From NCBI GenBank assembly GCA_973895155.1, contig OZ316895.1, positions 3,025,659 through 3,089,658 of the forward strand: 64,000 nucleotides of DNA. Direction: 5' to 3'. Made by a program: the position numbers and the translations under genes. This document shows, in pieces, positions 791-37,393 of the stretch. The number at the start of each line of letters is the position of its first letter. Position 1 is the first letter of the stretch. The notes under the pieces are model-generated. The model saw nothing but the letters and a program-made list of their open reading frames with translations. It was not told the DNA's origin and ran no database searches. This DNA is from Marsupella aquatica (lineage: Eukaryota > Plantae > Marchantiophyta).

Positions 791-849
791 GAAAATATTG
801 CTAGTAAACCATGTTAAGTAAAAAAAGTTGTTAAGTTGTTGCCACTTTT

Positions 850-7704: not shown

Positions 7705-10539
7705 GAGAGAGAGTAATAGGAGCCACCATCTGGAAAGGTCGATTGCTAACTTGCGTCTTTGAATATCCCCGCACTCATGAAAGCAATGAATTCGATTCTA
7801 CACACTCAGGAGGGAGGTAGCTGAATAGCACGGGTCAAAGTTACAATTCTGCGAATTGGACAAACACCCATTGTGAATTTGCAAATATTGGAGCAGGAAT
7901 TGGAACTTGTAGCGCAATGAAACGCTAGCAGTCTGTCGTGCAATTTGCCTGTAAACAAGCGAACGACAATAACTCTATGGTGCGCATCATGCACCTTGCT
8001 CGATATATCGTCAAATCAAGTAAACGAGCGGATATACATGGACATTGATCTCTCGCAGCACTAAATAGATTCATTCAAGTGAAAACACCCTATCCACATA
8101 TATATTGCAGGAGAACTTAAGTGTCATTGGATATAGTCAGAAGAGTCTTTGCAGGAGACTCGTATGATTGTACAGTTGTTGGGATTTATTCGATCTAAGC
8201 TGACAGGCGACTTGAGCTTGTAGCATTGCAGAAAAGCATTATGATGCTTACTCAGTAGAGTTTTGGAGGACACTCGAGTCCCTGATGTTCAAATTCGGGA
8301 TACATTTCAAGAGTGGTCGATCAAACTTGTTGCCATTTGGGCTCGTTGTATATACACCTCCAATGTTGATAACTTTATTTTCTCCGTATCAATAACACAC
8401 ATGATTGAGAACAGACAGAGCAGCCATTTCATGATTCTATGAACTTCATTGTATCGACCCGGTGTATCGATCTACAAGAGAAAATGCCAAATGTGTGTGG
8501 TGAGATGTCGTTCTGCGTCAACCTGTCTTCCACTGAACGTAAGGTAATTAAAATCTCACGAATATCATTACACATTTTGTCGTCATCTTGTGTATGAACC
8601 TTTTTGTAAACCAATTTGACACGAATAAATTAGTTTTAGTTGATTTGGTGGGTGTGCTCTCTTTCACTCCTCGTGACGTTAGAACTGTTGGCCCTCACTT
8701 TTAAAGCCGGAGCCACATGTCATTTTTTATATGACAACTTTTTGGTGTGTGGTTTCCTTCTACTCATTCACACAATTCTATTCATTCACACTATGATTAT
8801 CATCTGGCTGCTAACTTACCGTTCAAGCTAACTCTCTGCTCAGTTCCCATTGCCTCTCATTGTCCATGGAGCTGCAATAACTGTACACGCTATGCTCCAA
8901 CGTACTACCAGTGTGCAGAAGACCCGGCGGGTAAGTCTAACATTCAATGACATCACTACTATGATTGAACGGGAGATGCGGTGACCATGCTCTCCCTTTT
9001 GTCCCATTTTTTGGGAGACTGACTTGCTGTAGCCTGGGGGACAGCCAACTCGTCTCTTGGGAGGTGCTTTGTTTCAGGACTTGACTTTTGTTGGGTGTTT
9101 GGCCCTTGATCTTGCCTGTTTTCCTGTGTGTGAGGTGTTTGTGTTTTCCTTTGGGTGATTTTGCCCCCTTTGAGTGTGATTCTTGTGTGCTTTAGTACTC
9201 TGGGTTTGTTGTTCTTTGAGCCCTGCTGGTCTTCGCCACGGTGGCCTCTGGAATAAACAGGCGCACTGCCATCCTTCGTTTAAAATTTAAAATAAAAAAG
9301 AGGGGTAAAAAAACTTTTTTGGCGTCTGTAAATTATGAATCCCTTTTCAAATTAGTCAGTATATCCATGTTGGAACTGGGATGACTACTTTTTTGAAATG
9401 GTTAACATCTTACTTATAAATACTCATAAAGAGCTAAGGGAAGCTAGAGTTGGAGTCTAGGCTTCTAGAGTGGGTCTAGACTTCTTGAGTGAACCGGTGA
9501 CTCTAAGGCCCCACCAAAATATATGTGCATACAAAACAGTATGTGCATGGACAGAATTATAGGACCCCACCAAAATTCATGTGCATGGAGATAATGATGT
9601 ATGTTAAAATGATGACATGTACCATGGTTTCTATCATCGTTTCAAAGCTCACAATGACTCCACAATGACGCTTAGAAAAGACAAAACTGAAAGCATGGTG
9701 GACAAAAAAGATGGGGCAAAGATGAAAGGGAAACAGGGTAGAATCATTTTTTTGGCAAAGTTTTTTTGGGTTTTCATTTATCTAAGGGGGCAGGAATCAA
9801 AATTTAGGGTGGGAGTAAAAAAGAGGATGGGGTGGGGTGAGTTTTTGGAGGTTTTATGATGCAGCCAAATCAAATGTCATGTGTGAAGCAACAGAATTTA
9901 TAGTAATACAAGCAAATTATCAAAAGAAGAAATGGAACATGACAAGAGTATGACCCAGAGGAAATGGGAATAGAGGCATAAAGAAACTACAAGTGTTTCG
10001 TATATCGCCATGCAATTTGATTTAATTGTCAGCTGTTTCTATTTCCTGACCCTTGCTCCACTAAGTTTTATCCATGAAACTTTGTATGTTGGACCTTCCT
10101 ATTGAAGGAGAAATCTCTCAAGTGGGGTTTCCTTTTCTGTTTTGATACATTATTCTTATTACACTAGGGAATATATTTTGTGGATAGTTTATTGTACTCA
10201 CCTCCATTCACAGTCAAAGAACGGGTAGTCAGGGCTAGTTATATACTAAAATGGATCAACTATTACTAACAGCAGTGACAAACTAAGGTTTGATCCAACC
10301 TATTTATTGAAAAGTTTGTGATAGCATTTACATGATATACTAATGATTCATTATAGTATCTAATGATTAGTATACCTTCTAATCATTAGTAGCCCAAGTA
10401 TTATTTTCTCACCTTAATCAGGTCTACTAATGATTCATTTTTGCACTCACTCATAGTGCTGTCAACTGGTACATTGTCTGGGTAACTTTGAAATACAAAT
10501 GTAGAGCTTTAGACACAACTACATTTTACGGCTGATTAA

Positions 10540-11010
10540 CGGACTTTTAGAAGATGTTAATCACAACGTATATGGCCAGCGGAGGAAAGACCTCATTCAC
10601 GACGTCAATAGAGCGACGTTAATTACCACGTTTGGGGAGACGCTCTTTACCACGTCCAGCACATTGTTCTTAACGTCGTACAATAGGAGGTATATGGGTT
10701 TACAACGTGTCAGACTACGTCAAATATACCCAACTCTCGTGTTTAACTTTACCGATAAACGTCGTGTCAGGCTACGTAATGAAACATTAACCACGTCTGG
10801 TGCAATGGACTAAACGTCGTATTATTTTAGCGTCGTCCGTGGCTGGTAAATTACGACCTATTTGAGACGTATGGGTAAGTTGACATAGTAGGGGACGATG
10901 TATCGTGCTCTTGTTGTGCGACGTACGTTGGCTTATGTAGGGCTCAACGATGTACTGTGGTGGTTAAAGGTCTTATAAAGGAGGACGTATACGGGAGTAC
11001 ATACGTCCTA
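10540..11010. repeat. Left subterminal cluster of ACGACGT/ACGTCGT motifs
   Basis: Examples: cacgacgtc about 10598, gcgacgttaa about 10613, taacgtcgta about 10671, aaacgtcgtg about 10756, aaacgtcgta about 10812. Confidence 0.85.
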
Positions 11011-13831
11011 TTACACATTGCACTGTCTGGGTGGAGTCCTTGTTAGGGTTCAGCTCACACACAATATAACCATGTGTTTTTACATATTGTAACCCGGAAT
11101 GAGGTGCCACCACAAATGGGTGGCCTGAATCAAAATGGCAAAAAATATGTACATAATGCATGGAGGACCTCCTGCTACTGAAATACCTACAACCTAATGC
11201 CGTTGAGAATGGGGCCTATCACGTCCCGATCCTCCGCCTCGTCGCCGACGCAACTGATACTGCTGGGCATCCTGCTCTGAGGCACTGCTACTGCCTTCTG
11301 GTTCCGGTGCAGCCGAGGGTGGAGCCTTGCCTCTAGGTTTTGGCACTATCTGCCTGGTGCTACGTGTTACCCTAGTGGACCGCCTCTCACCACTCCTCCT
11401 TCTCCTATCTCTATCCCTATCTCTCCCTCTCTCTCTATCTCTATCTCCCTCCTCCCTCTGTCTCTCCCTTCCTTGTCCTCTGGCCCTATGAGTCTCCAAT
11501 GCAGGGAAAAGGTCACGAGAAGTGGAGCCCTGCTGACCGCAAGGTACTGGGTCCTCCTCCTGGGTACCCTCCTCCATGGTTACAGTGTTGGGCTCCTCAT
11601 CCTCCTCAATGGGTCGTGCTACTAAACCCTCTGGTGCAGTCCAATCCACCTGTGCACAAGATACAATTTCAGTCTAGGTTTGCATAAGATACAGTTTTAG
11701 TCTAGGTCTATGGAATGGTACTGAACAAGCTAGCACACTTACCGGGTGGTCTTCCGGAACAGAGTCAAGCTTTGCCCATAGGGCTGCCGGGCCATATCGC
11801 TTAGAGTATAGCCGCTCTTGCTCACTCGGCTCGGCATCTCGGCCATACTTCCGCTTCTGCAGCAAAGGGAACTTACGTCGTTCAGGGCGATGTTATTTAC
11901 CTATCATCATACGACGTTACTAATACATACGTCGTCCATAAAGACGTTTAGGGGGACCCCATAGTATTAACGTCGATAGTACGACGTTAATGTAGTGCTA
12001 ACGTAGTTCAAAGCAAGGTACTACTAAGAAAACGTCATACGAGGAAAGGTAATGCGCGGCCAAGACGACGTTAATACTAAAAAACGACGTAAATCACAGG
12101 ATTACACCGCAACAGCACACGAACTGGCGAATGCAAACTTCAATGAGTATAGAGTGAGTCACTGCACTTACATAGGTTGCAAGAAATCCTCCCCAGATCC
12201 TCCCTGCCCCCAAAAATTAGTCACCTTCTTGCCACTTGCTTTTCGAACAGCAGTGGCCTTGTCTCCCATATGCACTCGCTTGCCAACTGGGGTGTCTAGG
12301 ACTGCTTCCAATTCGGAGACAATCAATTTGAAGTCCTCTTCACTCATCCCATCAGGTTTCTTGTAATCCCCTGTCCTCAAGTATCTCAGTTTTCGGACCT
12401 TGGCTCTCCACCTGAAACGCCGATCAGCTAGGTGATTCACGATCTTCTTCCTAATGTGGCGGTAGTCAATGTCACTTGCCTATCCAATGATTAATACGTG
12501 CAAACCGTACTTTTCCTTGCTTAAACCGTTGGTATCGTATTACGGGGTCGTGGAGGGACGCTATTTGGAGGATTTCCACACCTAAGGATGAGTATGTTTG
12601 ATTCCGCTCCCGGAAGTGTACTTTTTGATCAAGTCTACCGACTGGTCTCTCCGTTTTTGATCTTGAAGTCCAAGGGACTGGTCCTACCATCTACAACTCA
12701 TGCCCACCGGGTGAGTGCTGTCACCACCCCCCTCCTCTCTTGGGCAAGCATACCAACATTTACAATAAGATTTGAACACTAGTGACAAGGGCAAATGTTT
12801 CCACAACGACACCGACCACACGCACTAGGGGAGGAAAACAAACAACACAAGCAACAACAAGTGACACACAAAATATTGGAACCTCAAGCCAAATCCATAT
12901 CTCTTGGTGTTTCCCGTAACACATGCAAGGACAACCCGGCCTCCTGCCGTCTGCCCAACTCCTGCCTCCCGGGGACAAGTGCTACGTTCTCCACCTCACT
13001 ATACTCTGGCTTGAACTTCTCCTAATCGGTGCGCTACTCACAAAAGCTACTCCAAAGCATCCAAGTACTACGCTGAGTTCCCCCCTCACTACTTCGGGGC
13101 TCTCCCCCTAAATACAAAAAAAACCACACCAAAGCACCCCTCATGGGGTCACAACGATGGCGGCTACCCTAGCGGCGCCGCTAAAACCCTGCACTAAGAA
13201 ATCCCTAAACTAAAAAGGCATGCGGCACACACATGCTGCTAAAACCCTAAACCCTAAACAAGGGGCCGACGGTGCCTTCGATGGCGCCCCAACTGTACAC
13301 AGTGAACCCTGAAATTGCAAAACACCCCACAATGGCCGAAACTAGGTGCCCTATCAATTGTACTTTTGAGCTCACCCTTGGATAGCCCTTCTCCTCTTGA
13401 TCCCGAATCACTCAGCCGCACTCACAACGGACATCGGACGCCTGAGTTATGGTCGTTTCCGTATCGCGAAAACACAATTTCGTCGGGCCATAACTTGCTC
13501 ATCCTGGCTCCGTTTGAGGAGCGCCGCCTCTTGTTGGAATCAGCTCCGCGAGCTCTTTCCAACAAGCCTGTGAGTGACCCCTCACAAAAAAGTTGGAAAT
13601 CCAGAGGCTGTACAACCACATCCGTACGACTATCTACTCCTCCTCTTCTTCACTCTCGGTGCCCCGGCTTGTGCCCCGTGAGTGGGCCTCCTCTTCATCA
13701 CTCACGGGAGTGAATGCCACCTCACTTTTCTTCTTCTTTACCGGGGTACTCTTCGTGTTGCCGCTCCCTTGCTTCCTCAAAGTGGCCAAGGCCTGCCATG
13801 CCTTGATGTACCCCTCACCAATGGTGTCTTT

Positions 13832-15487
13832 CTATAGGGTAGCCTCTTCTCCGGACCGCAACTCCAACGGTAGAACTTGCCCTGTGGCCATGGGAGTCCC
13901 GGGGGTGACAGACCTGGGTGGCATCCCCGTACTGACCTGAGCCTCCCGTAACGATTTCCGTACCTCCCGGAGCTTCTTCTCCAAGCCCTTGCTCTTCTCC
14001 TGACTCTTCTTGACTCCATCCAACAAGGGCCCATACTTCCCACTAACCTCCTTCACCACCATCTCAATAGCCTGGGAGATCAAATCCGGGGAAAGTGTGG
14101 AGCTAGGTGTGTCGGGGCTCTTCCATTTCCCCAGACTCAAGGCCTCACTCCTCATCGCTCGTGTCTCAAAGGCGGCCACCTGACTCCGTAGTGCTCCCAC
14201 CTGGTTTCTCCACTCCACCACTTCTCCAGAATTCTGCTTCTCTTTTGCCAATGCTTGTCTCAACGCTCCCACCTCTTCTGCTTCCTTGGCCTTGGTGGAC
14301 AAGGCTCCCTTCAAGTTGGAGATCTCTACGTGAGCTACTTGGAGAAGCTTAACCTTCTCATGAATGGTCCCCTCCTTGGCCTTGATCACCTCCTTCAGAG
14401 ACAGGGTACTCTGCTCTAACGTCTCTACTCTGGCTGTGGCGTGCTTGAGAGAATCTCTCAATGCGTGGACTAGCTTGAGTCCCTCATGGACTCCCTCTCT
14501 GAAATCCCGTAGCTCTGCTAGGTAAACATCCGGAATGTTGTAGACCAGCGGTTTTTTCGGATCTCCCACGAGTGATTCAAGCCACTCCAACGTGTAGTCC
14601 TCATCCTGGTTTTCTTCTCCTCTATCGTCATCCCCACCCGCCGACGATGATTCCTCCGTGAGCTTCCCTAAAATGGTAGTGGCAATACTCCGGATCTCCG
14701 TGGTGAGAGATGATCCCGTGTCTTCCTGTCCCGGGGAACCAATCAACCCTTTTGCCCTGGCCAATACAAATGACCCCATCAAATGTACAGCCCCACCTGG
14801 TTTCCCACTCCCGGGATCAGCGGCCAACAGCTTCTTCAACCCGTAGTACCACCATCCGTACACATGGGCTGGGTGGTTTTTGATGTCCATAGCTACCACG
14901 AAATGCTCTTCATTCACCACCCCGGATTGCACGTTGCCAAGGACCCGTTGATGAACCTTGGCCAGGAATCCCTTATACTCAACATCCTTGACAGCGGAAA
15001 GATGGATGGCAGTGGTGGAGGTGGGATTAACCACCCAAGTGGCCACCATCTTCAACGTGAGTTCTCCCCTAATGTGCCGAGGTGTGAATGAGAATTTCTG
15101 ATTCTCCAGAAACAGCAGCCTAGCCAACTCCACATGGGGCACTACACGTTTGAGACATTCAAAGTAGATTCCCTCCGTTCGTAACTCCATCCCGGCCTCA
15201 ATGTCCCAGCTCTTCTCCGGAGGGATGGTAATCTCCACCTTCATGAATTCTGTAACCCCGGTGGCTTGGAAAATATTTCGACAATCCTCCATCACCTTGG
15301 CGGAGGTCTTGGGATAAATTCGACGAAAAATCCTCCTACCCACCGGTGTGGAACCTGCTGCCAATCCCGTGCTCATCGTAGCTTCTCTCTCTTCTCTCTC
15401 CCTTGCAATCAAAATCTCCACGTAGTCACGGTAAGTAGCCTTGTATCTCTGAATGCATGCCACACTAAACTCCGGTTGATCTAGCAT
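13832..15487 (-). CDS. 551-aa ORF inside the LTR-like insertion; resembles retrotransposon accessory ORFs (ATHILA ORF-1/Transposase_32-like N-terminal half, coiled-coil C-terminal half)
   Basis: Long open frame from ATG 15487; the pattern FQATGVTEF...AVKDVEYKGFLAKVHQRVLG...SGVV recalls plant TE accessory domains; heptad-rich region afterwards. The frame continues past the TAG at 13832 to a TAG near 13634, so the stop may be premature. Confidence 0.6.
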   Translation of the reverse strand: MLDQPEFSVACIQRYKATYRDYVEILIAREREEREATMSTGLAAGSTPVGRRIFRRIYPKTSAKVMEDCRNIFQATGVTEFMKVEITIPPEKSWDIEAGMELRTEGIYFECLKRVVPHVELARLLFLENQKFSFTPRHIRGELTLKMVATWVVNPTSTTAIHLSAVKDVEYKGFLAKVHQRVLGNVQSGVVNEEHFVVAMDIKNHPAHVYGWWYYGLKKLLAADPGSGKPGGAVHLMGSFVLARAKGLIGSPGQEDTGSSLTTEIRSIATTILGKLTEESSSAGGDDDRGEENQDEDYTLEWLESLVGDPKKPLVYNIPDVYLAELRDFREGVHEGLKLVHALRDSLKHATARVETLEQSTLSLKEVIKAKEGTIHEKVKLLQVAHVEISNLKGALSTKAKEAEEVGALRQALAKEKQNSGEVVEWRNQVGALRSQVAAFETRAMRSEALSLGKWKSPDTPSSTLSPDLISQAIEMVVKEVSGKYGPLLDGVKKSQEKSKGLEKKLREVRKSLREAQVSTGMPPRSVTPGTPMATGQVLPLELRSGEEATL

Positions 15488-15989
15488 TCATGCATCCCGA
15501 AATCAAATCGTCACCCGTAGCAATGTCAATTCCCTGGCCCGAAACAGCCCCCTATAGCCCGATTAATTTATTTCTCTCAATCCCTTCCGTCGTCACTCCA
15601 TGTTGCTATCGTTAATGCCCGGACAGTCCCCGCAATCCCCCATGAGTGAACCTTGAGAAGAATTGGAGAGAGAGCTCAAATAATTGTAACATAAGGAGAA
15701 AGCTTTCGGCAATAAGAGAGAGAAACTCGAGTTTGCTTTCGGCAAGAGAAGGGTCGTGTGAAAAGGAGAAAAGAGGGGAGAGAAAAAAAACAACGAAACC
15801 CTTCCTGGGAGCTTCTTTTTGCCTTGCGCCCCGGAGCCCTCCTTTGTCCCGTGTCACACCATTATGAGTGGTAGTATAGGATATCGGACTATGTAGGTTT
15901 GAGGCTTTCATATGTGTGTGATCGTGTCAGACAAGATTGTGTGTTTGATTGGCATCAATCGTTGTTCGATTATTCTTGAAGATGAATCA

Positions 15990-16175
15990 GCCACAGGCCG
16001 TGGGCTATGGGTGACTACCCACGCAACCAAACTGCAAGAGGGCACAGGCCGTGGGCTGTGGGTGACTACCCACGCAACCAAACTGCAAGAGGCCACAGGC
16101 CATGGGCTGTGGGTGCCAACCCACCCAACCAAGATGAATCGGCTACAAGCCGTGGGCTGTGGGTGCCTCCCCACC
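15990..16175. repeat. 51-bp tandem repeat (about 3.5 copies) within the LTR-like insertion
   Basis: cacaggccRtgggct(a/g)tgggtg units start at 15992, 16043 and 16094, with a diverged copy at about 16145. Confidence 0.9.
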
Positions 16176-17602
16176 AAAACTCTCTTTGCTCAAGTCATGC
16201 GCTAAACACGCCACAATCGATGTCTGTTGTGTAGCGATGTTTATGCGCACGACACCCGACTCGCGGGAGTCCCCCCTTCCTCGTAGCTCGCTGGCTCGCG
16301 GCCCTATGCAGGGCTCGCGGCCCCCCTGCCCGGTCACTCGCGGAGCCCCCCTTCCTCGCTGCCCACTCGCGGAAGGATTTAATGGGGGTTTAATTAAACC
16401 CCCCCATACTTCCCCAGTCTTGCTTGAGTGTTGCCTTAGAAGGGGTGTTACCAAAAAATTAAAAATGCTTATTTCCCGGACTTCCTTACCTTCCCGGAAA
16501 GTCACGATTTAAAACCCCCCAGGTTTTGCCCCATAATTAACCCGGGTCTAGACAAAACTGTTGGGGTCTCCGACTATCCCGAGATGCTTTAAAAAACTTT
16601 ACAAACTTAAAGAACATTAAAAAAACTCGCGTCTATGGGCTTATTTATTTACAAGTGTCTTGCTGGTGACACTAATGGTGACTTACCGTGGCGGGACCCG
16701 TCACAGTCAATCTCTCACCCATTTCTGAATCCAGCCTGCACGTCATTCAGGAGCAATTGGAACTTCTTTTGGTTATGCACAAGCTCCTTCCAAGTAGTCC
16801 AACCGGGACAGTGTTTAGCTACGCACGTCTGCACTCTGTTCGTGAGTGCTTTCTCATCCATGACGTCCGGCCTAGCATCAAAAGCGGCAAGGGTGATGGT
16901 GGGAAGGTGCTCCCTGTTGGCAGAAGCAGCTGCAACTTGCTGAGAAGGACGTCGCCGCTCTGGAGGAAACGATCGTGAGTGGTCTTCTCTCCTCTCTGCT
17001 CTTGTATGTCGATCTCCCCTACGTCTCTTGCTAGAAGTGCATGCATTGTGGTCATTAGATCCTTTCCCCTTTCGCCTTCTCCTTTCAGTGCTGCTATTTG
17101 ACGAAGAACGAGATCGCCTCCTCCTCCTCCTATGTTGCCGATGGTCCCTCCTATCATCTTCTGGCCTGTATCTCTCATGTGGGATTGTCACTTGACTCTT
17201 GATAGGAGTTTGAGCTGCTGCCTGAGAATCTAGTTGAATCCCAGTGAAGGCAGGATCATCCCAACCATCGTCTGGTAGACTCGGGAACAAAGGTAGCATA
17301 TCAATCGATGCCCCATCAAGCTCGGGCGTGGATTTAGGCACTTCAATCGCGGCCCCCTCCTCAATCTCGGCCCCCTCCTCGTCGGCAGGAGTGTTGGCCT
17401 CAATACTCTCCAGGTATTCTATAAACCTGGACTCCTTTGTTCCTTGTCCTCCCATGAATTGCCAGCTGTGGTTGAATGCTTGAACTAGTGAATGTGTCGA
17501 ACGTAGGGCTCGATGCACCTTCTCCAACTCCTCTGGATCCTCCAAACCCACCTTCAGTGCATCAAAGTTCACACTACAGGGAAGATAGCCTGGATACGAC
17601 AT

Positions 17603-18041
17603 GGCAGACTATTCTATGAGCAATTATGTGAGGTAGAGGAGGCAAGGAGAGGTAAGGACTAGAGGTGGGGAATGTCGAATGTGAGTCACATTCAAACACT
17701 CCCTCGATACTCCCCCGATGTTTTCCAAAGGAAATGACCGGGGATGCCTAACCTCGTGGATCCACCATTTTCCTGATTTTACGTCATTACGAGAAACGAC
17801 GTACATAATACATCATACTTAACGACGTTAATCTGGATAAACGTCGTACTTAGTGTTTTAAAGGTCATTGTTTGCGGGTCCATTGACGACGTTAAATGTT
17901 AGGGTTTCTTCAAAAAACGACTTTAAGGCCTTGTAACGTACTGTATGGCATTGTACTTTAGGGTTAGGGTTTGTGTGGTAGGTTTAGGGTTTGGATCCTT
18001 CCCTACGCATTAATCAAAGACGGTTCAATTTGTTGCAGGGC
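17603..18041. promoter_or_regulatory. Putative bidirectional promoter between the TnpA-like and TnpD/SET genes
   Basis: About 440 bp between divergent ATGs (17602 on -, 18042 on +); ACGACGT cluster at 17795-17897; telo-box-like tagggttt/ttagggttagggttt runs at about 17899 and 17958-17992. Function is inferred from position. Confidence 0.5.
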
Positions 18042-19547
18042 ATGGTGATCTATGCATCGGACTCTCTGTCTGATGAGAGAGATGATGGGGATACGAGTCT
18101 TGGCTCCAGATACCGGCATCGTGATAGGGGTAGAGACTATTCGCCGGATAGGAGGAGGGATCATTCGCTGGTTAGGAGGAGGGACTATACGCCGGATAGG
18201 TGGAGGGATGACTCACTGGATAGGAGGGATTATTCGCCGCAGAGGAGGGATTATTCACCAGAGAGCAGGGGTCGTGAGTCATTGCCCCGGAGGACGCCTA
18301 GTGGAGTCATTGCCCCGGAGCCTAGTCGTGAGTCATTGCCCCGGAGTCATGAGGACGGAAGGAGAGAGAGGAGCCGCCGTCATCGGTCACACCATCGCCG
18401 GCAGTCACGTGAGCCTCAGGCATACAGCTCACCTTCGCCAGTGGAGGAGGGGTTTGGAGCGGCCATGGCTGCTCTTCATGGTATTGGACCAGTCCGCAAG
18501 ATGCCTTGCCCTTGTAGACGATGCAAGGGCATTGTATCTCACGAGAGCACTACCATCGTTAGCCACTTAGGGATCCACGGTCGTTATGTTCCACCGACAC
18601 CAGAGGTAAGTTTTATCCTTTTGCACAACCATTTTGAGTAACTTTAACTTTTACTAGGTTGGGGTAGGTTGGCTTCTTGAGCAATGTTCATGTTTCTCGC
18701 TTTCTAAACATTTTGTTGCATACATGTGGAACAGATTCTTATTGTACGGTCTCCCCCTAAGGACCGCATGAGAGAGGTTGCACGTCGAGCGCTCTCAGCT
18801 CTGGTCCCCCCATCGGCACTAGATGCCACCTTACGGGCAATAGACCGTGTATTTGATAGGGTGAGGGTGGCACGTGTGCACCCTATTGAGAGGGGAGTAG
18901 TGGTCAGTACTAGACCACGGTCGTTGGAGTCTCGTCCGCCTAGGATGAGGCCACCCCATTGCCCTTTTCTTGATGCATCTAGTGCCCGGGAACCGAGAGA
19001 GTTACGTGGGAGAGCCTTGGACATCATAAAGGACTCATTCCCTACCCAATTTGGGCTCCCATTGGACCTTCCAATCAGGGAACCTATCATAGTCTGGGGT
19101 CGCCCTTGGGTCCTCCTTCCCTCCACATTGGGCCCTAACGTAGGATTAGGATTATTTGCACTTGTAGATATTGTGGTCCCTGATGGTTGTGAGCCCGAGG
19201 ACTTGCCTCAGCTCTTTCCATTCTATGGGCCAAAGTATTATGCACAGCGATGGCGCATCTTGTCTCGACAATGTCCAACCTTTGGTCGATATGGCATGTC
19301 TGTCAAGCTAGACCCTAGGTATGCTCAGATGGATGGTTATTCACCCCGCACTGGAAACTTGGCAGGTTACATCAATAGCACTGTGGGTTGTCGGCGTTTA
19401 GGTTTTAGGCCAAACGCTGAGTGGCACGAGTACCATGACCAGACCCACCCTCGTTTGCCACAGGCTTGTACTCATAACATCTTGACCCAAGCTAGCCGCA
19501 CCATTCGAGCAGGGGAAGAGATTTTTGTAGATTATGATTGGCATTGA
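18042..19547 (+). CDS. Predicted transposon-encoded SET-domain protein: exon 18042-18605 (RS/RD repeats plus CPCxxC...HL..HG zinc-binding module) joined to exon 18735-19547 (SET); about 458 aa
   Basis: SET motifs in the expected order: GLGLFA, FYG, DG...GNLAGYINS...PNA, RTIRAGEEIFVDY. Phase-0 donor GAG|gtaag at 18605/18606 and phase-0 acceptor cag|ATT at 18734/18735; no stops or frameshifts along this path. Confidence 0.8.
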
Positions 19548-22500
19548 GGATGGACATGATATATTCAGAATATATGGACCCATTGTTGCATATTGCATTA
19601 AATCATATTTTATTATTTGTTTGATTATAATGTTGTATTAAATAATGATTTTAACAATTGTAGGATGGTGCATACATTACCCCTACACCTCACCCATCCA
19701 TGATGACGATGTCAGCGCGTGACTTTCACCTATGGGCCACTCTGCACTTTTCTGATGAGGAAAATGTTGAGGGGGATAGTGACCATGAGGAGTACCCTGA
19801 TGCATATGATGGAGACTTTGATGAGGACGATGGAGATGAGGGGGATGCACCCATTCTTGAAGAGGAAGCTTTTGCCCACCTTGTGGACGTTCACTTTGGA
19901 CCACATGCACCTCAGGGCGAGAGGCCTACCATGGAAGTAGACCAGGAAGATTGGGACCAGTTGGAAATGGAAAGCCAGAACTCCACTCTTCCTGGATTCT
20001 CCATCATCACGGTAAGTGTCATGCTTGATTGAATAGTATCATGTGTCGACCATTACTTACCACACCCAATGTCATACCTCAAACTAATTGCATACAATTC
20101 CCTGGTTTCACAAATGCAGGTTGGGTGCCACTTTGTTGATGTTGAATTTGCAGGGAGTTTTCAACACTTCAGACGTCCATATAGATGCACTATTCCAGCT
20201 ATTCCACAAAAAACTCTTGCCCCAACCAAACACTCTCCCTGGGTGTGTGAGGGAAGCTAAGAAGTTGTTAACCTCAATTGGATTGGCTTTAGAGACTATC
20301 CACATGTGTCCAAGTGGTTGCATCCTGTACAGAGGGACATACCTTGAGCAAACAGAGTGCCCAGAGGCACAATGTAAGCTTCCACGGTACCGACTGGATA
20401 CCATCGGCGAAAAGATCCCAGAGAAGGTGATGTCCTCCTCCTCCTGGCAGTGTTACGTTTGTTAGAACGTAGTTTTGCCCATTTTCCTTGTCATTTCCAA
20501 TGTACGCACACGTATGTCATTTCTAAAGACATAACTTACGTCTCCAAATCACCAGTTAGTTTTTACGTCGTCTACTACATGGTACACATATATTTACGTC
20601 GTTAATTAAGACACAAATTGAAGTTTCCGACGTTACTAACATCTCTGGGAAACTTTACGTCGTATGTTACATTGTACCGATGTATTTACGTCGTGTAAGA
20701 CGACATTAACTTTGATTTAACGTCGAAGTGATGCTTGTAACACTGTTTATGGCAGGTCTTCAGGTATTTCCCAATCACACCCCGACTACAGCATCTTTAT
20801 CGACGGAAACATTTATCAGCACTTCAAACATGGCATGCTGAGAACAAATCTCCACCAGGGATTATGCGGTATCACCACAATAGTCCAGCATGGAAGCACA
20901 TCGACAGCACTTGGCCGGATTTTTCTAGGGAGCCAAGGAACATTCGATTGGGGTTAGCAATAGATGGGGTAAACCCATACAAGCAACGACGGAAGCCTAA
21001 GTCCATATGGCCAATTCTTTTGCTCAATCAAAATATCCCTCCATGGTTGGCGATGAAGAAGGGTCATGTTCTCCTCCTTGCTATCATTCCGGGTCCTCAG
21101 GCCTGTAAAAATCCAGACATTTGTTTGAATTGGCTCCAGCTTATGAAGAGTTGCAGAAGCTATGGGAGTTTGGGGCAGTGACCACAGATGTGACTTGGAC
21201 ACCGGATAATGGGAGGACATTTAATATGAGAGCAATGATCACCCATTGCACCACGGATGGTCCAGGTAATTCTCAATCATAGAAATAATTGAGACATACA
21301 TTGTGCATGGTTCTATTGCATGTGACAATGGTTTTTGGCCTGAATGTTTTAAATGTCATTGACAGGTATGGGCACAATATCTGGCTTGAAAGTGGTCGAT
21401 TATTCAGCTTGCCCTTCATGTGGTCCTGAGTTGCATGGGAGATACTCTAAGCGTCTGCACAAAACCACATATGAGGGCAGTAGGGTTCGTTTGCCAATGG
21501 ACGATATATTGCGACATAACACCACACATTGGGCTGAGACTGAGTTTAGGCCATGTCCCAATGGGCCTTCAGCTGAGGGTCAAATTCAAATGGCGGAGAA
21601 AGTGGAGGCAAAGTTACTTCAACCTAAGCACTGTGGTGTCAATCGTCGCTCAGCTTTGTGGGACTTGCCTTATTGGAGGGTAAGTAAAATCAGATTGGAC
21701 CTATTTTTAAGTTAGTGACTTGTAGTATTCTATTTATGAGTTTCTCACTAGCACAACCTGGTTCTTCATCTTGTAGAGGCTCCAGATCCGATGGTTGTTG
21801 GACCCCATGCATATTGAAGTAAATGTTGCCAAGAACCTGGTGAAGCACATTTATGGGATGAATGATACTCGTGGGGTCCGAGAGGATGCAAAGCAGGTTG
21901 AAGTGGTCAAGAGTTGTTGGATAACTCGAGATGGGGAGAAGCCACCTGCTCCTTGGGTTTTGCCAAAACAGATTTTGAAGGAGATGAACGGGATGATATG
22001 TGAAATGAAATTCCCTAGCCATTACGGAGCCGGCTTCCGTGGGTGCACTACAAGGGAAGACCACATACCCCCAATCGGCTTGAAGTCTCACGATTATCAC
22101 AAGTTGATTCAGCATGTGTTACCTGCTGTCTTGCGTTGTTGTGATGATTCTAGAGAGCGACGCCTACTCCGACATACAGTATATGAGTTGTGCTCCATTT
22201 TCAGGTTAGCATAGTCTTGTTGGCCATACTAATAATTTGACATATGTTTATCATACTAATAATTTGACAAAATCTTGAGTACCCCTTACAGGTGGGTATG
22301 CGCCAAGGAAATAAAGGAGAGTGAGATTCCCGAGATGAGGGAATGGTCTGCCCGTGTTATGTGCAATATGGAGAAGGTGTTTCCCCCATGTATTTTTGAC
22401 ATGCAGTTGCATTTGCTATGTCATCTGGTGGATGAGGTAGCCATTGCTGGTCCAGTGCATGCGCGGTGGATGTATTGGGTAGAGCGGTTCATGAAAGTGC

Positions 22501-23606
22501 TAAAGTCTTGGGTGCACCAACCCGCTCGACCAGAGGGAAGTATGGCAACAGGGTATATTATGTCAGAGTGTCTGTTCTACTCAAGCGGGGTGATAGGGAG
22601 TTTGGACACACAAGCTCCCATAGCTTGGGAAGAGGCACAAGATGATGACAATGGTGGGTTGCGAGTGATGGGCGCATCAAAGAAGCGATCATTACATGAT
22701 GACATTTTTCACCGACAGATCCACAATTATGTGTTGGAGAACTGCACCGAGATGTCAGATTGGAGAGAGTTGTATAGGTAGGGACGTAATCCTTCATGAA
22801 CTGAGTCCTACTTAGATTTGAAATGTACATTCAAGGTGGTTGGCACAAATTGGGATATGTGACCCAGTACTTGCAGGGCATGGGTGGAGCAGCAACGGAT
22901 AGGGGCAGCACAAGAGCGTGTTCATGCATCATTTTGCATATGGGCCTTGGAGTGCATGGAGGGGCTCCTTGCAATGCATGGCCCTACATTCATTCCCATT
23001 GATGTACAAAACATCATTAGGGGGCCTTCGATGTGGGCTATGAGTCATACTCACATGTATGAGTCAGGGCACCACTTTCGGACTTGGAGGACGGACCATA
23101 TGAAGAAGAGTACTTGTAACTCTGGAGTATATATGGTGCCCGATGTCGGTGATGTTGAGGTTCCTTATTGTGGCATTGTCTTGGATATTTTGGATGTTAA
23201 TTTTGGCTCATTTACCACCACGGTGTTAGAGGTGAGGTGGCACAAGTCCATCATGTCACCTCCAGCAAGAGCTACCATGGTGAAGGATGAGTGTGGATTT
23301 TATCGTGTGGACACGACCCGTGTTGCACCAAGCGGGACTGAGTTTAGTGACACTATAGTTTTTCCTAGCCAAGTGGATCAATGCATTATGGTTCCGATGC
23401 ACAGCATGGGAGGATGGTCCATTGTGATTCCCATCTTTCCACGCCGCAGGAAGGGCTTCATGCCATCAGCTATTGCAGACGATGAGGATTGTCATGATAG
23501 ACTCACTATCCCCATTTGTATTGACTGTTGTCATGGTTTGCATATAAACAGACATATTTCATGGCCTAGGCATCTGTCAATTTGGAGAGTGGGATGGGCT
23601 TGTTAA
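18042..23606 (+). pseudogene. TnpD/Tnp2-type CACTA DDE transposase (Transpos_assoc, Transposase_21, DUF4218 and DUF4216-like regions), multi-exon, with two frameshifts
   Basis: Exons about 18042-18605, 19664-20011, 20120-20427, 20757-21266, 21366-21679, 21777-22205, 22292-22777 and 22877 onward. Motifs IHMCPSGCILY, RYFPITPRL, SPAWKHID, RNIRLGLAIDG, TDGPG, DPMHIEVNV, GLKSHDYH, FPPCIFDMQLHLLCHL, WMYWVERFMKVLK, FPSQVDQC. Frameshifts at about 19971 and about 21128. Confidence 0.9.
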
Positions 23607-24142
23607 TCACTTGGTAAAGAAACAAGTAATAACCATACATTTATGGACATGATCCCTCGGCCTTCTACTACAAGGGATAATTGTCATTAACATCGTCCGA
23701 AACAATGCACGTCGATACCAAATTCTCTAACATCGTTTATAGCTACGCACATTTGACGTAATGGTAGTTAACGTCGTGTACCGAACCATCAGTCAACGTT
23801 ATAAGGGTTTATTAACGTCCTTCTATACGTCGTAACACGGTGAAAATGACGTTCTTAACGATGTATGGCGCGACAAAAATATATTACCTCGAGTAGAACG
23901 ACGTTAATAATTAGATACGACGGTTCAGTCAACGTACTAAATTTTCTTCGATGTTAATCACAGGCAAAAGATACAACATTCAAACCACACAATTGTTGCG
24001 ACAAATAGCACTCATGGATGTGTTTATTGCTGCACATAGACCAAATAGAGATACACCATAGCTCTACCATCCTTTCTACTGGAAATGTAGCCTACATGAG
24101 TCATGGTCATCCCTCTACACCCTCCCTCCAGACTGATGTTGA

Positions 24143-24706
24143 TTAAGGAGTCCCTTCTCCAGACCAGTAGTACTCCTCGTCTGCTTTCCTCTTCTTGTAC
24201 GAAGCATGCCTTTGGCTGGCATTCCAATTCTTCCGCACAACAGCTTCACTGGCCTGTAGCCTCTGAGCCTCCACCTCGGCTGCACAACTTTCCTTGTAAT
24301 CAAACATAGCAATCTGAAGTTCAGTGGGTGACAGGTCACATTTAGACAAGGTGGGAGGGTAGGCCTCACCATCATCATCCTCGGGCGAATCTTCCAGACC
24401 ACGATCACTGCTCGGATGCAACAAGAACTCTCCTGGATCCAACTGCTTGTTGGCAAGAATGGAGCACTCTACCCACCGAGTAGAGATGAAGGGCACGGTT
24501 TCAGCGAAATGCTCGATCAAGCCAGCATAGTCACTAAAGTGCTGGACCACAACCTGTTTCCACGTATTTGCAATCAAGAAATCGGTCTGTGAGGTACATA
24601 GCTTGTCAACAAGCCCTCCATGGCAAAAGAACCCTCGAACCATCTTCTCCTCCTCACCAAGTGGGAGGAAACAACAATGCACATTTGCAAAGAACTTCCG
24701 CACCAT
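24143..24706 (-). CDS. BRCT-domain protein (187 aa) carried inside the CACTA element
   Basis: BRCT pattern FANVHCCFL...FFCHGGLV...TDFLIA...FISTRWVECSILANKQLDPGEFLL (beta1, GG turn, WxxxS helix), followed by an acidic linker, a helix and a KKRK NLS-like motif; intact ATG to TAA; lies between the TIRs. Confidence 0.75.
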   Translation of the reverse strand: MVRKFFANVHCCFLPLGEEEKMVRGFFCHGGLVDKLCTSQTDFLIANTWKQVVVQHFSDYAGLIEHFAETVPFISTRWVECSILANKQLDPGEFLLHPSSDRGLEDSPEDDDGEAYPPTLSKCDLSPTELQIAMFDYKESCAAEVEAQRLQASEAVVRKNWNASQRHASYKKRKADEEYYWSGEGTP

Positions 24707-24834
24707 AGCTGAAGTCTTTGCCTCCCACGGTTCAACTTCTCTACACTGAGGACCTTTGATGTCTTCACTCGGGAATGTTGGCTATAGTGAGCCTCCTGCC
24801 TATAGTTCAATCTGTCCTCCGCTGATATGTGGAA

Positions 24835-25160
24835 ATAACGTCGTTTTTCCCGATGCACGTATGGTATTCTATGATGACGCATCTGCAGATACGTCGTTCC
24901 AAACGCCTAAACTTAAGAACGTCGTCCTATACATCGTTCTAGTTTACGTCTTCCAGGAACAGGTAAATTACCACGTCTAGTACGACGTAATGTAAGGTAC
25001 AACGTGATATACGAGGTAACTTACCGTGTCTTAAAGGACGTAAAGTTAACGTCACACAAGTCAACGTTATCTGATCCCGTCAGAACTCCTGACGACATCC
25101 GACAACAGTCCGGAACTTAACGACGTATAGTCCGTCGTAAATGGAAGGAACGTCGTCTTG
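24835..25160. repeat. Right subterminal cluster of ACGACGT/ACGTCGT motifs
   Basis: aacgtcgtt about 24837, tacgtcgtt about 24890, aacgtcgtc about 24918, tacgacgtaa about 24981, aacgacgta about 25119, aacgtcgtc about 25149. Confidence 0.85.
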
Positions 25161-26412
25161 GGTTAGGTTAAACCTGGTCCCGAAATACGAAAATGTAGTT
25201 GTGGAGCTTCAAACAAGCTCTAGGGCAGGAGCTTAAAACCACTAAGAGGGGGTGAATTTCTTCAAAAAGTGGCACTTTGGTTAACTAAGGCAATTACATC
25301 GAAATAAGAATACACAACAAAAATCTCAATAAAACAAAAAAAGACCTGAGTAATCTTCCAAACAGGTTAACACCACACAAATATGCTCGACATGGTGGAA
25401 CTCATTTCACCTTCTTGTCTTGCAGCAATCAAAACACAATTTTGCTATATCTTATTAATGAGCTATAGTTAAAATAACATTTACATAAATTGGCTATAAT
25501 TATCCTGGAACTGATGTGGACCTGTGGACGGGCAGAGGTAGCCAGGGGGAGAAGGGGAGGCACTGGGAATGGAGGTCAGGAAAGAGGAGCCCAAAGTGAC
25601 AAGAAGGTAGGAGATTCAGGGAATAATTAGCTCAAGGACCCCTCGGTTATGTAAGTTTGTTTTATTCAACTGTTTTGAGCCACAAAGAGTTGTACATTGG
25701 AATAGATAGATTAGAGCACATCACTGGATTCTGTCACAAAGAGTAACTTGTATGATTGTGGAAACAAACATTCATAACTATTTGTGTTTTCTCTCTCTTT
25801 TAACCGTTTCCCTCCTTCTTCCTTTCTTTCCAGGCATCCCCACACAAGGGAGGGCATGCACAGACTATAAGGGAGATCCTTGTGCTAGGCAAGGGAGGTG
25901 CCAAGGGTTAAGAGGAGTTTTGGCAAACTTTGAAAACTAGGAAAAAGAGGCAATAAGGAATAGACCAATATTACTTCTCACCTAAAATATAAGATAAATG
26001 AGATTTTGGAGAGATTGAATATTGTAAATGAGTTTTAGATATCAATACATATAAATTGTGCCCTCTTGATTTTAAAACAAAAATATAATATACTACCAAT
26101 ACGTAAGAAAAATTGAGCTGGACCACATACTAGTTCTGGATTGTCCAAGTCAGAGGTTAAGATGACCGAGTCTTTTGGGAGGCTTTTGAATGGGTAATGT
26201 GTAAGGTCTGGTTAGAGGGCATTGTGGGATATAATGTCCCCAAAATGAGGGATTTTGCCCAAGTTTCAAGGGACATTATATATGGCCCATAATTTTCACT
26301 TTCAAAACATTAACTAATATGAAGACTTGAGAGAGTCTTGGAAAGAAACCAAAAAAGTCCCTAAAATTAAGGCCATGCAATGGAGCATGCAATGGTGTGT
26401 ACAAAGAAAATA

Positions 26413-27360: not shown

Positions 27361-29685
27361 AGACAAAATTATTTTTTTATTTTTTTCCAAACTGAGACCA
27401 AATAAGTTAAAATGCAAGGATTTTGGATCATGAAAAGATTTGCTGGCAAATTTGTGTGTTGTGATAATTTGCTTTTTGTTTCATATGAGAATCGTTCTGT
27501 ACTTTAATTGAGCTGGAGCATCTGCTTGGATTGATAGGCCATTGTACCATTCCCTCCTTGAAGCAAGGTGTGTATTGGAGACACAAAATGCCCTAAAAAA
27601 TACAAAGCCAAACCTTGTGAAGTCTTTACAGATATAGTAAATGTCCTGCTTACACAGCATTATGGGATATAATAGGGAGTCTCAAAGCTGACATTGATGG
27701 ACCTTAAGTTAAGGACACCAAAAGTTATGGACACACCCAAATTCATAGTCCATAAGTTTTTGCCATAAGGATTGGTCATATTATGCCATTACCATTATAG
27801 GTAGAGGCTCGTGAAAGAAAAAAACAAAAAATCTTTTACATAACCTCATGAAAAAGTTATGATCATTCCTTCATGGCTGAATATCATCCATAGTTTGTCG
27901 GCTCTGAGATGCCGTGTTCTTGAGTTTTGAGGGGCTATTATTCCGTGATGCTTTTGGAAACAGGACCTGGCTTGATAAACTTAAAGGCCTGATAGATTTT
28001 TACTTTCACTAATTTTAGTATAAGTAGGGGAGACTGCCCTCCAGAGGTGATTCAAATCTTGACCTGCAGGCATTATTCACCAATAATTAAGTAAATGCAA
28101 ATCTCTTCAATGTAGGAGCCAAGGTCTGGAAATGTTTGGACCGGCCCTCTCTAGGCAATGTAAATTTCTAGACAAATAAGCAGTCCTCATCAGCATTCAC
28201 TTGGGCCCACTGCTTGCCATGAAGAATTGGTACACATCATTACTAAATGACCCCAGGGTCTTGTACTTGCAACATATATAGCTGTTTCCACTCATTAAAT
28301 TGTTGTAATTTCAATCTTAGAGGAAGAAAAAGAAGAAATTTCTTCCCACCCCCACCCCCCTTGACCAAAAAAAAAACCTCTTGTATAGCCTCTCTAAGAT
28401 CCTGTAATGGGGCTTAAGATGGAAACACCCAACACTGTTTCCACTCTTTACACCATCCACATTTAATCTTAGAGAGAATGAAAAGAAGCGAGAAAAGAAG
28501 TAATGGCCCCTCACTGTTGTAAAGCCATCCTGAGGTCATATAAACCTTGTCAATTCATCATACAATCCAAATATATTCTCATTCAAAATAAAGGAAGGGG
28601 AAAAGCAAGCTATGGGCCCATGTCCACTATAAGGTGGACCTACCATAGTTACATGGCAAAACCAAAGACTTAGTCCCTGAGTTCAATCCCCCTCTACACG
28701 CAAGGGGGTGGAGTACATGTGTAAGTGAAGTGGGTGGGGTGTAGTGGTGGGAGTGCTGGTTTCTCTTTGGCCCCTAGCTGGCCACTTTGGGGCCTAGTTC
28801 AACCCTCTCTCCCTCGGGGTATGGGTCCCTGTAGGACCCCTTGATATGACCACTTGTGGTTATTGTACATAGGTGCATGCTCCAAAATAGATCTTTATTC
28901 GATCTGTGTTGGATGGGTGTTTGCTTTTTGGTTTCAAGGCAAAGCAAATACTTAATTAAGCTGCATGGGTGTTGCTTATTGATTTCAAGGCAAAGAAAGA
29001 CTCAACTAATCTCAGAGGGAACAAAAAGAAGCAATCAAAAAGCAAATCTATATAACTGCAAAGAAACAAAAATGCCAAACCAGGAGACATGATCCCAAAC
29101 TAAGGCAAAAAACTCAATAAGGGGGAAAACAAAGGAGAAACCTGGGAAAACGCAAGAACCAAAAGCCAAAGGGCCAAATAGCAAAAAAAGCCCACATGGC
29201 TAAAGAAGAAAAACCCCGGCAAAGGGCCAAAGAACAGGAGCCCTACTGAGCCACATACTTGAATGCTTGGTACAGCTCCAGGGTGAACATCACAGGAGGG
29301 TCACGAAGGGGAATTTGAATGGAAGCCCTAAATCCAACATCCTTAGCCCACGGAAGGATGGTGAAGGCCTGAGCCCGCTAGAGAGTGAATAAGAATGAAA
29401 TGAACTCAACCTCTTGTAAAGCCTGTATTGTACAGTATGGCATCTCAAATATTTTTTAAAAATTGAACCTTGTGGACAGCCCACAACGCACTTGGGTGCC
29501 CCGCAACAGAGTATAACCGGGCCATCATCTACTAGGGTAGTCAAATATGAGTGGGGTTACGATTCTCAGGTGTGATTGGTTGGGCCTCACATTTGGTCCC
29601 CGACCAGTCCTTCCTGCTGCCCAACCCACAACACTCCCAAGTGTGGTCGCATGTGAAAATTGACCAATTTTGAGATGCCCTAATA

Positions 29686-30156
29686 GGGCGTCTCAAAGCT
29701 GGGTCATTAGTGAAAGTTACAGTTTTGTGGTATATCCCATAACTCTGGTTATGGAACGCAGTTATGGAATTTTAAAAATGGGGGGAGGTAGCATTGACCC
29801 GCCCCATAAGGAAGGAGTGATGGTCTCACCTGTCTCATAGCCTATATGTTTTCCCTCCATTCTTGATCAGCCGCCACCTCAAATGCAGCAGCCATCACCG
29901 CGTCAGGCACAAAGTCCATGTGACTTCAATATCGGTCTTCCAGAGTTCCGGATTTGCGCCCAAAGTTGTGGGAAAGTTATGGGTCAACGTTCAGCTAGCG
30001 GGCTTTCCTTAAAATAGCTGAAAATCAGCTCCCATAACTTTTAGGCTTTCCTCAAGGTAACTAATAAACTCCCATAACATTTCCTGGAGTTCCAGTAATA
30101 GTACAATTATGATTATCTTGTTAAGGTAGGGTATTGGGCTAGGCTTTGAGATGCCC
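29686..30156. mobile_element. Tourist/PIF-Harbinger-like MITE
   Basis: TIRs gggcgtctcaaagc / gctttgagatgccc flanked by TA; related ends at about 27676, 29669-29680 and 34700-34713, and an inverted copy ending at 61384. Confidence 0.65.
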
Positions 30157-37089: not shown

Positions 37090-37393
37090 ATGGTTGTCAT
37101 TTGTTGTCACACGCTCATGATTGATTTAAATTGCCCAATCTTGTTAAAGTTTCCGTTCATATTGGTCAAACATGGTATACCTGACGCTGCCCAGTTCGCC
37201 ATCTCCTGGGCCCTTTTCTATACGCCTCCGGTGTAAGGTGCTCGTAGTACGAATAGCAGAAAGCTTTTCTGCCTTGGACGTCTTGCTGACACCACGAAAG
37301 ATTCGGTTTCTCCAGGCATTATATCCAATAACAATATTGCTAAATCCTGGCACAACTGTTCCCGTATCATCCGATTCATCTATTGTAGAAGAT

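What the first reader, a model, noticed from the sequence alone, without database searches (positions are those of the whole stretch)
10540..25160. ACGACGT motif forms six clusters in non-coding parts of the element, including two introns
Seen: dense (A/T)ACGACGT / ACGTCGT clusters at about 10540-11010 (left end), 11870-12095 (TnpA-like intron), 17775-17930 (divergent promoter), 20460-20730 (transposase intron), 23690-23955 (between TnpD and BRCT) and 24835-25160 (right end). I saw no such clusters in the nested LTR or the flanks. Each motif has two CpGs and many are intact, although decayed forms (aacatcgt, acgatgta) exist. Established: CACTA repeats are normally subterminal TnpA-binding sites, whereas internal non-coding motif arrays characterise VANC targets in VANDAL elements. 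Inference: these are landing pads that spread an element-encoded factor across the whole element.
Basis: partly seen in the sequence, partly recalled or inferred. Interest (0 to 1): 0.78.

Follow-up and report, generated by a model that had tools for sequence, protein, structure and literature searches.

The report
CACTA transposon with internal docking arrays
A plant jumping gene carries one 10-letter DNA word in six tight clusters, at both ends and in every long non-coding stretch inside it, and its nearest relatives carry their own versions of the word in other introns, so the clusters likely serve as docking sites for a protein the element makes to keep itself from being silenced.

Summary
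A CACTA/EnSpm element (10514-25203, 14-bp TIRs) has 27 exact ACGTCGT sites against 0.77 expected. All 27 fall in its six non-coding stretches over 300 bp; none is in about 7 kb of coding sequence or in eight short introns. The consensus is TTWACGTCGT, in both orientations and not in tandem repeats. Spacers between motifs keep CpG (o/e 0.96; short introns 0.13). The two nearest relatives found carry related but different words (TTACSACCT, TTACGTCTC) in other introns. Most other families show no arrays: 2 of 21 pass a blind test. The element also encodes an open 458-codon zinc-module + SET-domain product, a layout shared with Riccia gene models. One SET-bearing family lacks intronic arrays, and one array-bearing family lacks SET at that position, so the two are not obligately linked. 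Best reading: family-specific binding pads for an element-encoded, TnpA-type factor, laid out like VANC targets. Binding, methylation state and the binder's identity are untested, and the 'TnpA-like' label had no database support. Verdict: new variant of a known kind.

The parts
10514..25203 (.). CACTA/EnSpm DNA transposon, about 10.4 kb without the nested insertion; this copy is defective
   Evidence: Perfect 14-bp TIRs with GA on both flanks; Transposase_21 and DUF4218 Pfam hits; a sister contig's alignment stops at exactly 10514
10514..10527 (+). Left TIR, begins CACAA
25190..25203 (-). Right TIR
10549..11011 (.). Cluster 1, left subterminal: 4 exact sites, 13 matrix sites
11872..12093 (.). 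Cluster 2, in the long intron of the left gene: 6 exact, 11 matrix sites
17778..17926 (.). Cluster 3, between the divergent starts of the left gene and the transposase gene (promoter role inferred): 4 exact, 6 matrix sites
20464..20709 (.). Cluster 4, in the 329-bp transposase intron 20427-20755: 4 exact, 7 matrix sites, about 31-bp spacing, one 41-bp duplication
23687..23926 (.). Cluster 5, between the convergent 3' ends of the transposase and BRCT-like genes: 3 exact, 9 matrix sites
   Evidence: spanned by a sister contig with 42 other letters in 331
24835..25158 (.). Cluster 6, right subterminal, partly inside a predicted 5' intron of the BRCT-like gene: 6 exact, 11 matrix sites
11194..17602 (-). 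Left multi-exon gene, candidate motif binder ('TnpA-like' by recalled resemblance only); split by the nested insertion, with one internal stop at the junction
   Evidence: With the insertion and one copy of its duplication removed, 398 codons read with one internal stop; no Pfam, homolog, Atlas or fold match
12470..16705 (.). Nested high-copy LTR-like insertion, TG...CA ends, 5-bp duplication GTCAA, 551-aa ORF; no motif
   Evidence: contig depth several- to ten-fold that of the host element; no convincing LTR pair found
18042..18605 (+). Exon 1: RS-rich stretch plus CxCxxC..H zinc module
   Evidence: Transpos_assoc PF13963 E=0.0014, below its cut-off; GT donor at 18606
18735..19547 (+). SET-domain exon inside intron 1 of the transposase gene; spliced to exon 1 it gives an open 458-codon product (splicing predicted)
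   Evidence: PF00856 24.1 bits, cut-off 22.4; SET-fold matches; 147 relatives
19664..23606 (+). TnpD-type transposase exons; frameshifts near 19975 and near 21130
   Evidence: PF02992 E=6.8e-27, PF13960 E=1.4e-30
24143..24781 (-). Open ORF with a weak BRCT match
   Evidence: PF16589 E=0.041, 14.6 bits against cut-off 27.3; no solved-structure hit

Best explanation
The six clusters are arrays of one 10-bp word, TTWACGTCGT, at both ends and in every long non-coding stretch of a CACTA transposon, and they likely are binding pads for a DNA-binding protein made by the element, which would keep the pads unmethylated and the element's genes active. Shown: the word, its enrichment and placement, CpG retention in the spacers, sister contigs over clusters 1 and 5, and family-specific variants in other introns of related elements. 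Inferred: that the terminal copies are TnpA-type sites as in other CACTAs; that the same protein therefore binds the internal copies; that the left gene encodes it; and that binding protects from or removes methylation. With the nested insertion removed, no base of the 10.4-kb element is more than 1.5 kb from a site.
For: Enrichment 27 against 0.77; all sites in 6 of 6 long non-coding segments, 0 in coding sequence and 0 in 8 short introns. The same word occupies both subterminal regions, where CACTA elements carry TnpA sites (PMC2613891 passages). Arabidopsis TnpA binds dense clusters of a family-specific CpG-containing 10-mer and demethylates them (bioRxiv 10.64898/2026.08.24.746577 sections 4 and 33). 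Spacers are unrelated between clusters, so the word is what is shared. Spacer CpG o/e is 0.96 after masking motifs, against 0.13 in short introns (p=2e-8) and 0.39 in the rest of the long segments (p=0.004). The window, L001 and L006 form a clade (SH-aLRT 95). L001 has 12 of 12 TAC[CG]AC[CG]T sites in its two long introns; L006 has 7 of 7 TAC[GA]TCTC sites in two introns; neither uses the intron that holds cluster 4. L001 passes a blind test, 0 of 100 shuffles. Maximum distance to a site is 1494 bp.
Against: No binding or methylation data. The candidate binder has no family, homolog, Atlas or fold match, and two papers place TnpA-like proteins in flowering plants only. Spacer CpG retention is not significant against coding sequence (p=0.098), and 18 of 51 spacer CpGs sit in ACGT and may be worn motifs. 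L001's first array intron has 1 CpG in 268 bp, so CpG richness is not general. Only 2 of 21 other families pass the blind array test, and one of them (L034) looks like a tandem-derived block. The L006 and L032 patterns were chosen by eye. The ACGT core also fits host bZIP factors (recalled). One of the five listed sister differences in clusters removes a CpG from an exact site (24983).
Confidence: 0.55

Rival explanations
1. The arrays are binding sites for host transcription factors (ACGT-core, bZIP-like) that the element uses as enhancers or as methylation-free islands; no element protein is involved.
For: The core TACGTC/AACGTC is an ACGT element (recalled). Clusters 3 and 6 lie at likely promoters. 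L032's 3' region also holds repeated CCACGTCA words. TF sites in transposons are documented for Arabidopsis (bioRxiv 10.1101/2022.10.24.513474 passages). The element's candidate binder is unidentified.
Against: The word changes between families (TTACSACCT in L001 lacks the ACGT core at 10 of 12 sites; AGTCRTT in L032), whereas a host factor's word should stay put. It is the same word as at the subterminal positions. It is at chance level in the 49 kb of flank.
Confidence: 0.15
2. The word is a transposition signal only. The internal arrays are passive copies or relics of subterminal sequence, or extra synapsis sites, with no role in silencing.
For: Subterminal repeats are cis-determinants of excision. 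L001's sites come as inverted pairs, like CACTA subterminal stem-loops. Most surveyed families do without internal arrays.
Against: Internal clusters share no alignable sequence with the termini beyond the word and no second TIR was found. Internal arrays are as dense as terminal ones. Arrays recur in different introns of related families, which relics would not predict. CpGs persist in the spacers.
Confidence: 0.15
3. The arrays recruit the element's own zinc-module + SET protein, directly or through the left-gene product, which would write a histone lysine mark over the element, either activating or self-dampening.
For: Exon 1 + SET is open for 458 codons in a copy whose transposase and left gene are broken. 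SAM-binding and catalytic-type motifs are nearly invariant in 15 relatives. The fold matches MLL3, PRC2, SET7/9 and SET8. Zinc + SET fusions occur in Riccia gene models.
Against: The SET-bearing L002 family shows no arrays from SET to the transposase stop (its promoter and ends were not in the contigs). L032 and L037 have arrays but no SET between zinc module and core. The substrate is unknown, and the fold hits do not separate activating from repressive enzymes.
Confidence: 0.15

Closest known systems
Arabidopsis Spm1/TnpA system (bioRxiv 10.64898/2026.08.24.746577; read: outline, sections 4, 6, 33 and a term search)
   Same: Same superfamily; family-specific 8-10-bp word with CpG; dense clusters needed; word diversifies with the family.
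   Different: There, binding and demethylation are restricted to the termini. Here four of six clusters are internal. TnpA-like proteins are said to be limited to flowering plants, and the binder here is unidentified.
VANDAL/VANC anti-silencing (PMC5735166 and PMC10398659; passages read)
   Same: Short family-specific words dense in introns, intergenic and terminal non-coding regions of a multi-gene DNA transposon.
   Different: VANDAL is a Mutator element with degenerate TIRs. Its targets are same-orientation tandem repeats. Here the element is CACTA, sites are 29 plus and 28 minus, spacers are unrelated, and no VANC/DUF family match was seen in Pfam scans.
Subterminal repeats of plant CACTA elements (En/Spm, Tgm; PMC2613891 passages)
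   Same: Reiterated direct and inverted short words near both ends, with an AT-rich and a GC-rich half.
   Different: Ends are CACAA, the flanking duplication matches at 2 bp rather than 3 bp, and the word recurs internally.
SET-carrying transposons: HarbingerS and oomycete MuDR (PMC12730594 introduction), Phytophthora Helentrons (PMC4067079 passages), red-algal Plavaka PAG2/PAG3 (bioRxiv 10.1101/2025.02.11.637652 passages)
   Same: A DNA transposon carries a SET domain. Plavaka belongs to the EnSpm superfamily and has internal repeat arrays proposed as self-binding sites.
   Different: Here SET is an in-frame exon inside transposase intron 1 that would share the zinc-module exon; the host is a land plant; there is no methylase, ParB or oxygenase gene; arrays are dispersed words at six places.

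Membership tests
CACTA/EnSpm | TnpD-type transposase (Transposase_21, DUF4218) | tested here: met
   PF02992 E=6.8e-27, PF13960 E=1.4e-30
CACTA/EnSpm | Short TIR starting CAC | tested here: met
   14 of 14 match, CACAA rather than CACTA
CACTA/EnSpm | 3-bp target duplication (plant type; 2-5 bp across the CMCT clade) | tested here: inconclusive
   2-bp GA matches, 3 bp does not; one copy only, in a locally repetitive site
CACTA/EnSpm | Subterminal repeated word at both ends | tested here: met
   Clusters 1 and 6
TnpA-type anti-silencing system | TnpA-like protein with two helix-turn-helix units | tested here: inconclusive
   No Pfam, homolog or Atlas match; a single-sequence fold of half the domain gave four helices at pLDDT 51.6 and no fold match
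TnpA-type anti-silencing system | Target clusters restricted to termini | tested here: not met
   Four of six clusters are internal
TnpA-type anti-silencing system | Protein binds the word and causes local demethylation | not testable with these tools
   Only an indirect CpG-retention footprint
VANDAL/VANC | Mutator transposase and a VANC gene | tested here: not met
   The transposase is CACTA; no such family in the Pfam scans of 14 and 8 ORF pieces
VANDAL/VANC | Word dense in introns, intergenic and terminal non-coding regions | tested here: met
   6 of 6 long non-coding segments
VANDAL/VANC | Same-orientation tandem-repeat organisation of targets | tested here: not met
   29 plus and 28 minus sites; none of 24 tandem-repeat rows overlaps a cluster; one 41-bp duplication in cluster 4
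SET-domain lysine methyltransferase | SET fold with GxG, N-x-S..PN and E-x-x-x-x-Y motifs | tested here: met
   (motif names recalled)
SET-domain lysine methyltransferase | Activity on a histone lysine | not testable with these tools
   Fold hits span H3K4, H3K27, H4K20 and non-histone enzymes at similar scores

The most novel reading that the evidence does not exclude
A bryophyte CACTA lineage has built a complete self-addressed chromatin-writing system: an element-encoded reader docks on a family-specific word planted at six points along the element and brings in the element's own zinc-SET enzyme to write a histone mark over its whole length, an anti-silencing design reached independently of VANC and using its own writer rather than a host demethylase.
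Probability: 0.17. Interest if true: 0.88.

Novelty: new variant of a known kind. Interest (0 to 1): 0.6.

Why it matters
Sequence-specific anti-silencing is known from flowering plants in two designs: terminal TnpA sites in Spm, and element-wide VANC targets in one Mutator lineage. An element-wide layout in a CACTA from a probable bryophyte, with the word changing and the arrays moving between introns across families, would show that the VANC-type layout arose twice and is not limited to flowering plants. The dispersed, non-tandem arrangement also asks how such arrays co-evolve without tandem amplification. The case is testable: the word is known, the candidate proteins are few, and the SET exon offers a possible element-encoded writer.

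Tried and rejected
No genome is held for this window, so no genome-wide density plot or full sister-copy alignment was possible. A site-by-site comparison of motif and spacer variation in sister copies remains open; one search lists only 40 of 3456 differences. No RNA holder was listed; this is no evidence on expression. SET-profile scans of metagenome and viral contigs confirmed nothing (0 of 276 and 0 of 58 candidates), nor did a transposase scan of viral contigs (0 of 1). The left gene got no homolog among 221 candidates, no Atlas hit, no Pfam hit at E<=5 and no fold match from a low-confidence model. No Rfam match in 10400-25400. No solved-structure sequence hit for the SET profile or the BRCT-like ORF. 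Rejected: chance or plain CpG richness; tandem amplification or a MITE inserted six times; a fixed inverted-pair spacing in the window (4 of 9 pairs at 12-13 bp are plus-minus); a 10-bp target duplication (8 of 10 match, explained by a local 8-bp repeat); a 6-bp duplication for the nested element at 12457-16671 (it does not restore the reading frame by my reading, whereas the 5-bp one does). The matrix score (57 sites) was trained on the clusters and is descriptive only; it also sites elsewhere in the element and 25 outside. The first tree run failed on labels and was rebuilt. The tree kept 52 of 75 rows after removing near-copies; loci lacking both exon matches were left out.
Full report
Observation. 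The window has 12 ACGACGT and 19 ACGTCGT sites, which are one word on two strands. Their context gives the consensus TTWACGTCGT. A matrix trained on the clusters finds 57 sites there, 6 to 13 per cluster, 29 on the plus and 28 on the minus strand. Dinucleotide shuffles of the element give 0.77 exact sites; 0 of 300 reach 27. Each of the six long non-coding segments, defined from gene structure, is enriched (0 of 2000 shuffles for five, 1 of 2000 for the sixth). Coding sequence (6954 bases), all 8 short introns (87-128 bp) and the nested element have none; the flanks are at chance level. The limits used were a few bases off and were corrected. The clusters share nothing alignable beyond the word and short context, apart from a 41-bp duplication within cluster 4, and none overlaps any of 24 tandem-repeat rows.

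The element. Perfect 14-bp TIRs bound 10514-25203, with GA on both sides. One sister contig's alignment ends exactly at 10514. The plus-strand gene is a TnpD-type transposase with two frameshifts. Its first intron holds an ORF with a SET domain (Pfam 24.1 bits against cut-off 22.4; model pLDDT 70.8; fold hits MLL3, PRC2, SET7/9, SET8 at E about 1e-6 to 1e-5). Exon 1, which carries the zinc module, splices in frame to it by GT..AG sites to give 458 open codons (splicing is predicted). A weakly BRCT-like ORF converges from the right. The left gene runs on the minus strand and is cut by an insertion at 12470-16705 with a 5-bp duplication; removing it leaves 398 codons with one internal stop. That insertion has several- to ten-fold higher contig depth. 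The left gene's likeness to TnpA is recalled, not shown: searches found nothing. Without the insertion the element is about 10.4 kb and no base is more than 1494 bp from a site. The host is probably a bryophyte: the named close SET relatives are from the liverworts Calypogeia fissa (46% and 58%) and Riccia sorocarpa, with distant ones in a fern and Ginkgo. The host itself was not identified.

Methylation footprint. With motifs and one-mismatch cores masked, cluster spacers keep CpG o/e 0.96 (36 in 989 bases). Short introns have 0.13 (3 in 824; p=2e-8), the rest of the long segments 0.39 (p=0.004), coding sequence 0.51 (p=0.098, not significant), and the near flanks about 0.2. This fits long-term protection from methylation at the clusters. 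It is weakened because 18 of 51 spacer CpGs are in ACGT and may be worn motifs. Liverwort DNA transposons are methylated (PMC5784723 passages).

Sister copies. Four runs were laid on 9500-26300. A contig spans cluster 5 with 42 other letters in 331 at depth 153, and another spans most of cluster 1 with 65 other letters. Only 40 of 3456 differences were listed. This shows presence in sisters, not a rate; the site-by-site test remains open.

Related families. A transposase scan of metagenome contigs gave 182 relatives among 244 candidates; 80 loci were kept. Their hosts are not given by the tools. In a tree of 52 rows the window groups with L001 and L006 (SH-aLRT 95, quick method, 222 columns). 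L001 has 12 TAC[CG]AC[CG]T sites against 0.15 expected, all in its two long introns (268 and 246 bp), often as inverted pairs, and none in its two short ones. L006 has 7 TAC[GA]TCTC sites against 0.07, all in two introns. Neither uses the intron that holds cluster 4; in L001 that intron is 107 bp and empty. In another clade, L032 has 22 AGTC[AG]TT sites against 1.3, 21 of them non-coding (two introns and the 3' region), and its sister L037 has arrays upstream of the transposase. L014 has a short array between the transposase stop and downstream sequence. These patterns were chosen by eye after a screen. In a blind exact 7-mer test on 43 of 81 regions long enough, grouped into 22 families including the window, only the window, L001 and L034/L035 had 0 of 100 shuffles reaching the score. 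L030 and L068 were borderline (3 and 4), L032 failed (87) although it passed an intron-only version (0 of 100), and L006 was too short. L034's array looks tandem-derived. Internal arrays are therefore real in this clade and patchy elsewhere. L001's first array intron has 1 CpG in 268 bp, so the shared feature is the word, not CpG density.

SET and arrays. The SET profile finds 147 representatives at E<=0.001. Of 30 scanned, 2 hit both SET and another family; 3 Riccia gene models carry Transposase_21 behind a match to the SET-family profile. Five of 159 proteins have an N-terminal zinc-type pattern, three of them named Riccia models with a separate SET product or fusion. Six of 80 loci, all one family, have SET just upstream of the transposase; they show no arrays from SET to the transposase stop, but their promoters and ends are not in the contigs. 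L032 and L037 have arrays and no SET there. So the two features co-occur here but are not obligately linked. Two earlier notes of this scan describe the same SET exon in moss CACTAs; I had found the layout before reading them, and they are not independent support.

Mechanism. The simplest reading is that the terminal clusters are the usual CACTA accessory-protein sites and that the same protein binds the four internal clusters. In Arabidopsis such a protein needs dense clusters of a family-specific 10-mer and triggers host demethylation, but only at the termini. VANC uses an element-wide layout, in tandem repeats of a Mutator element. This element has the first system's parts list and the second system's layout. 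I put this at 0.55. Host-factor sites, transposition-only relics and recruitment of the element's SET protein get about 0.15 each. Binding, the binder and methylation are all inferred.

Literature. Nine searches were run. None of the listings or the passages read described internal motif arrays in a CACTA of land plants, or a SET exon in a bryophyte CACTA. SET capture by HarbingerS, oomycete MuDR, Helentrons and red-algal Plavaka is in print, and Plavaka's internal repeats were already proposed as self-binding sites. Papers were read as outlines, named sections or term passages, never whole; PMC11982613 and PMC13547354 as passages. Repbase Reports, subscription journals and supplements were not seen.

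Verdict. The feature is real and ordered. It is a new variant of a known kind, a CACTA with a VANDAL-like spread of family-specific sites. Interest 0.6.

Noticed in passing
window 18735-19547: SET-domain exon in transposase intron 1, open in a copy whose transposase and left gene are broken; it ends just after the last conserved tyrosine with no cysteine-rich tail. Same layout in Riccia gene models and in six metagenome loci.
   Followed up: yes
window 12470-16705: Very high-copy nested insertion with TG...CA ends and a 5-bp duplication but no clear LTR pair; one 551-aa coiled-coil ORF with no Pfam family and a 51-bp tandem array at 15990-16174.
   Followed up: partly
window 24143-24781: Open ORF with a weak BRCT match transcribed inward from the right end; no relative among the 80 loci.
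   Followed up: partly
window 1-800 and 34150-34650: A second, unrelated array type built on AAAGATGTC words with 17- and 35-bp periods, present twice in inverted orientation.
   Followed up: no
window 30500-33750 and 44300-47550; 36900-38070 and 42530-44070; 29684-29990 and 61066-61386: A 13.8-kb-spaced near-identical duplication, a probable LTR pair inside it, and long inverted repeats about 31 kb apart: further nested elements.
   Followed up: no
L037 2013-2090, 2654-2750, 3458-3570: ACGACT/ATGACT arrays upstream of the transposase, behind a TAGGGTT-like word as at the window's cluster 3; two of the arrays lie in a duplicated block.
   Followed up: partly
L060 and L061, both ends of the contigs: Dense AACCG[GT]T arrays on both sides of the transposase only, a terminal-type layout for contrast.
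   Followed up: partly
window 18123-18350: Exon 1 holds 21-, 24- and 26-bp tandem repeats encoding an RS/RD-rich stretch ahead of the zinc module.
   Followed up: no
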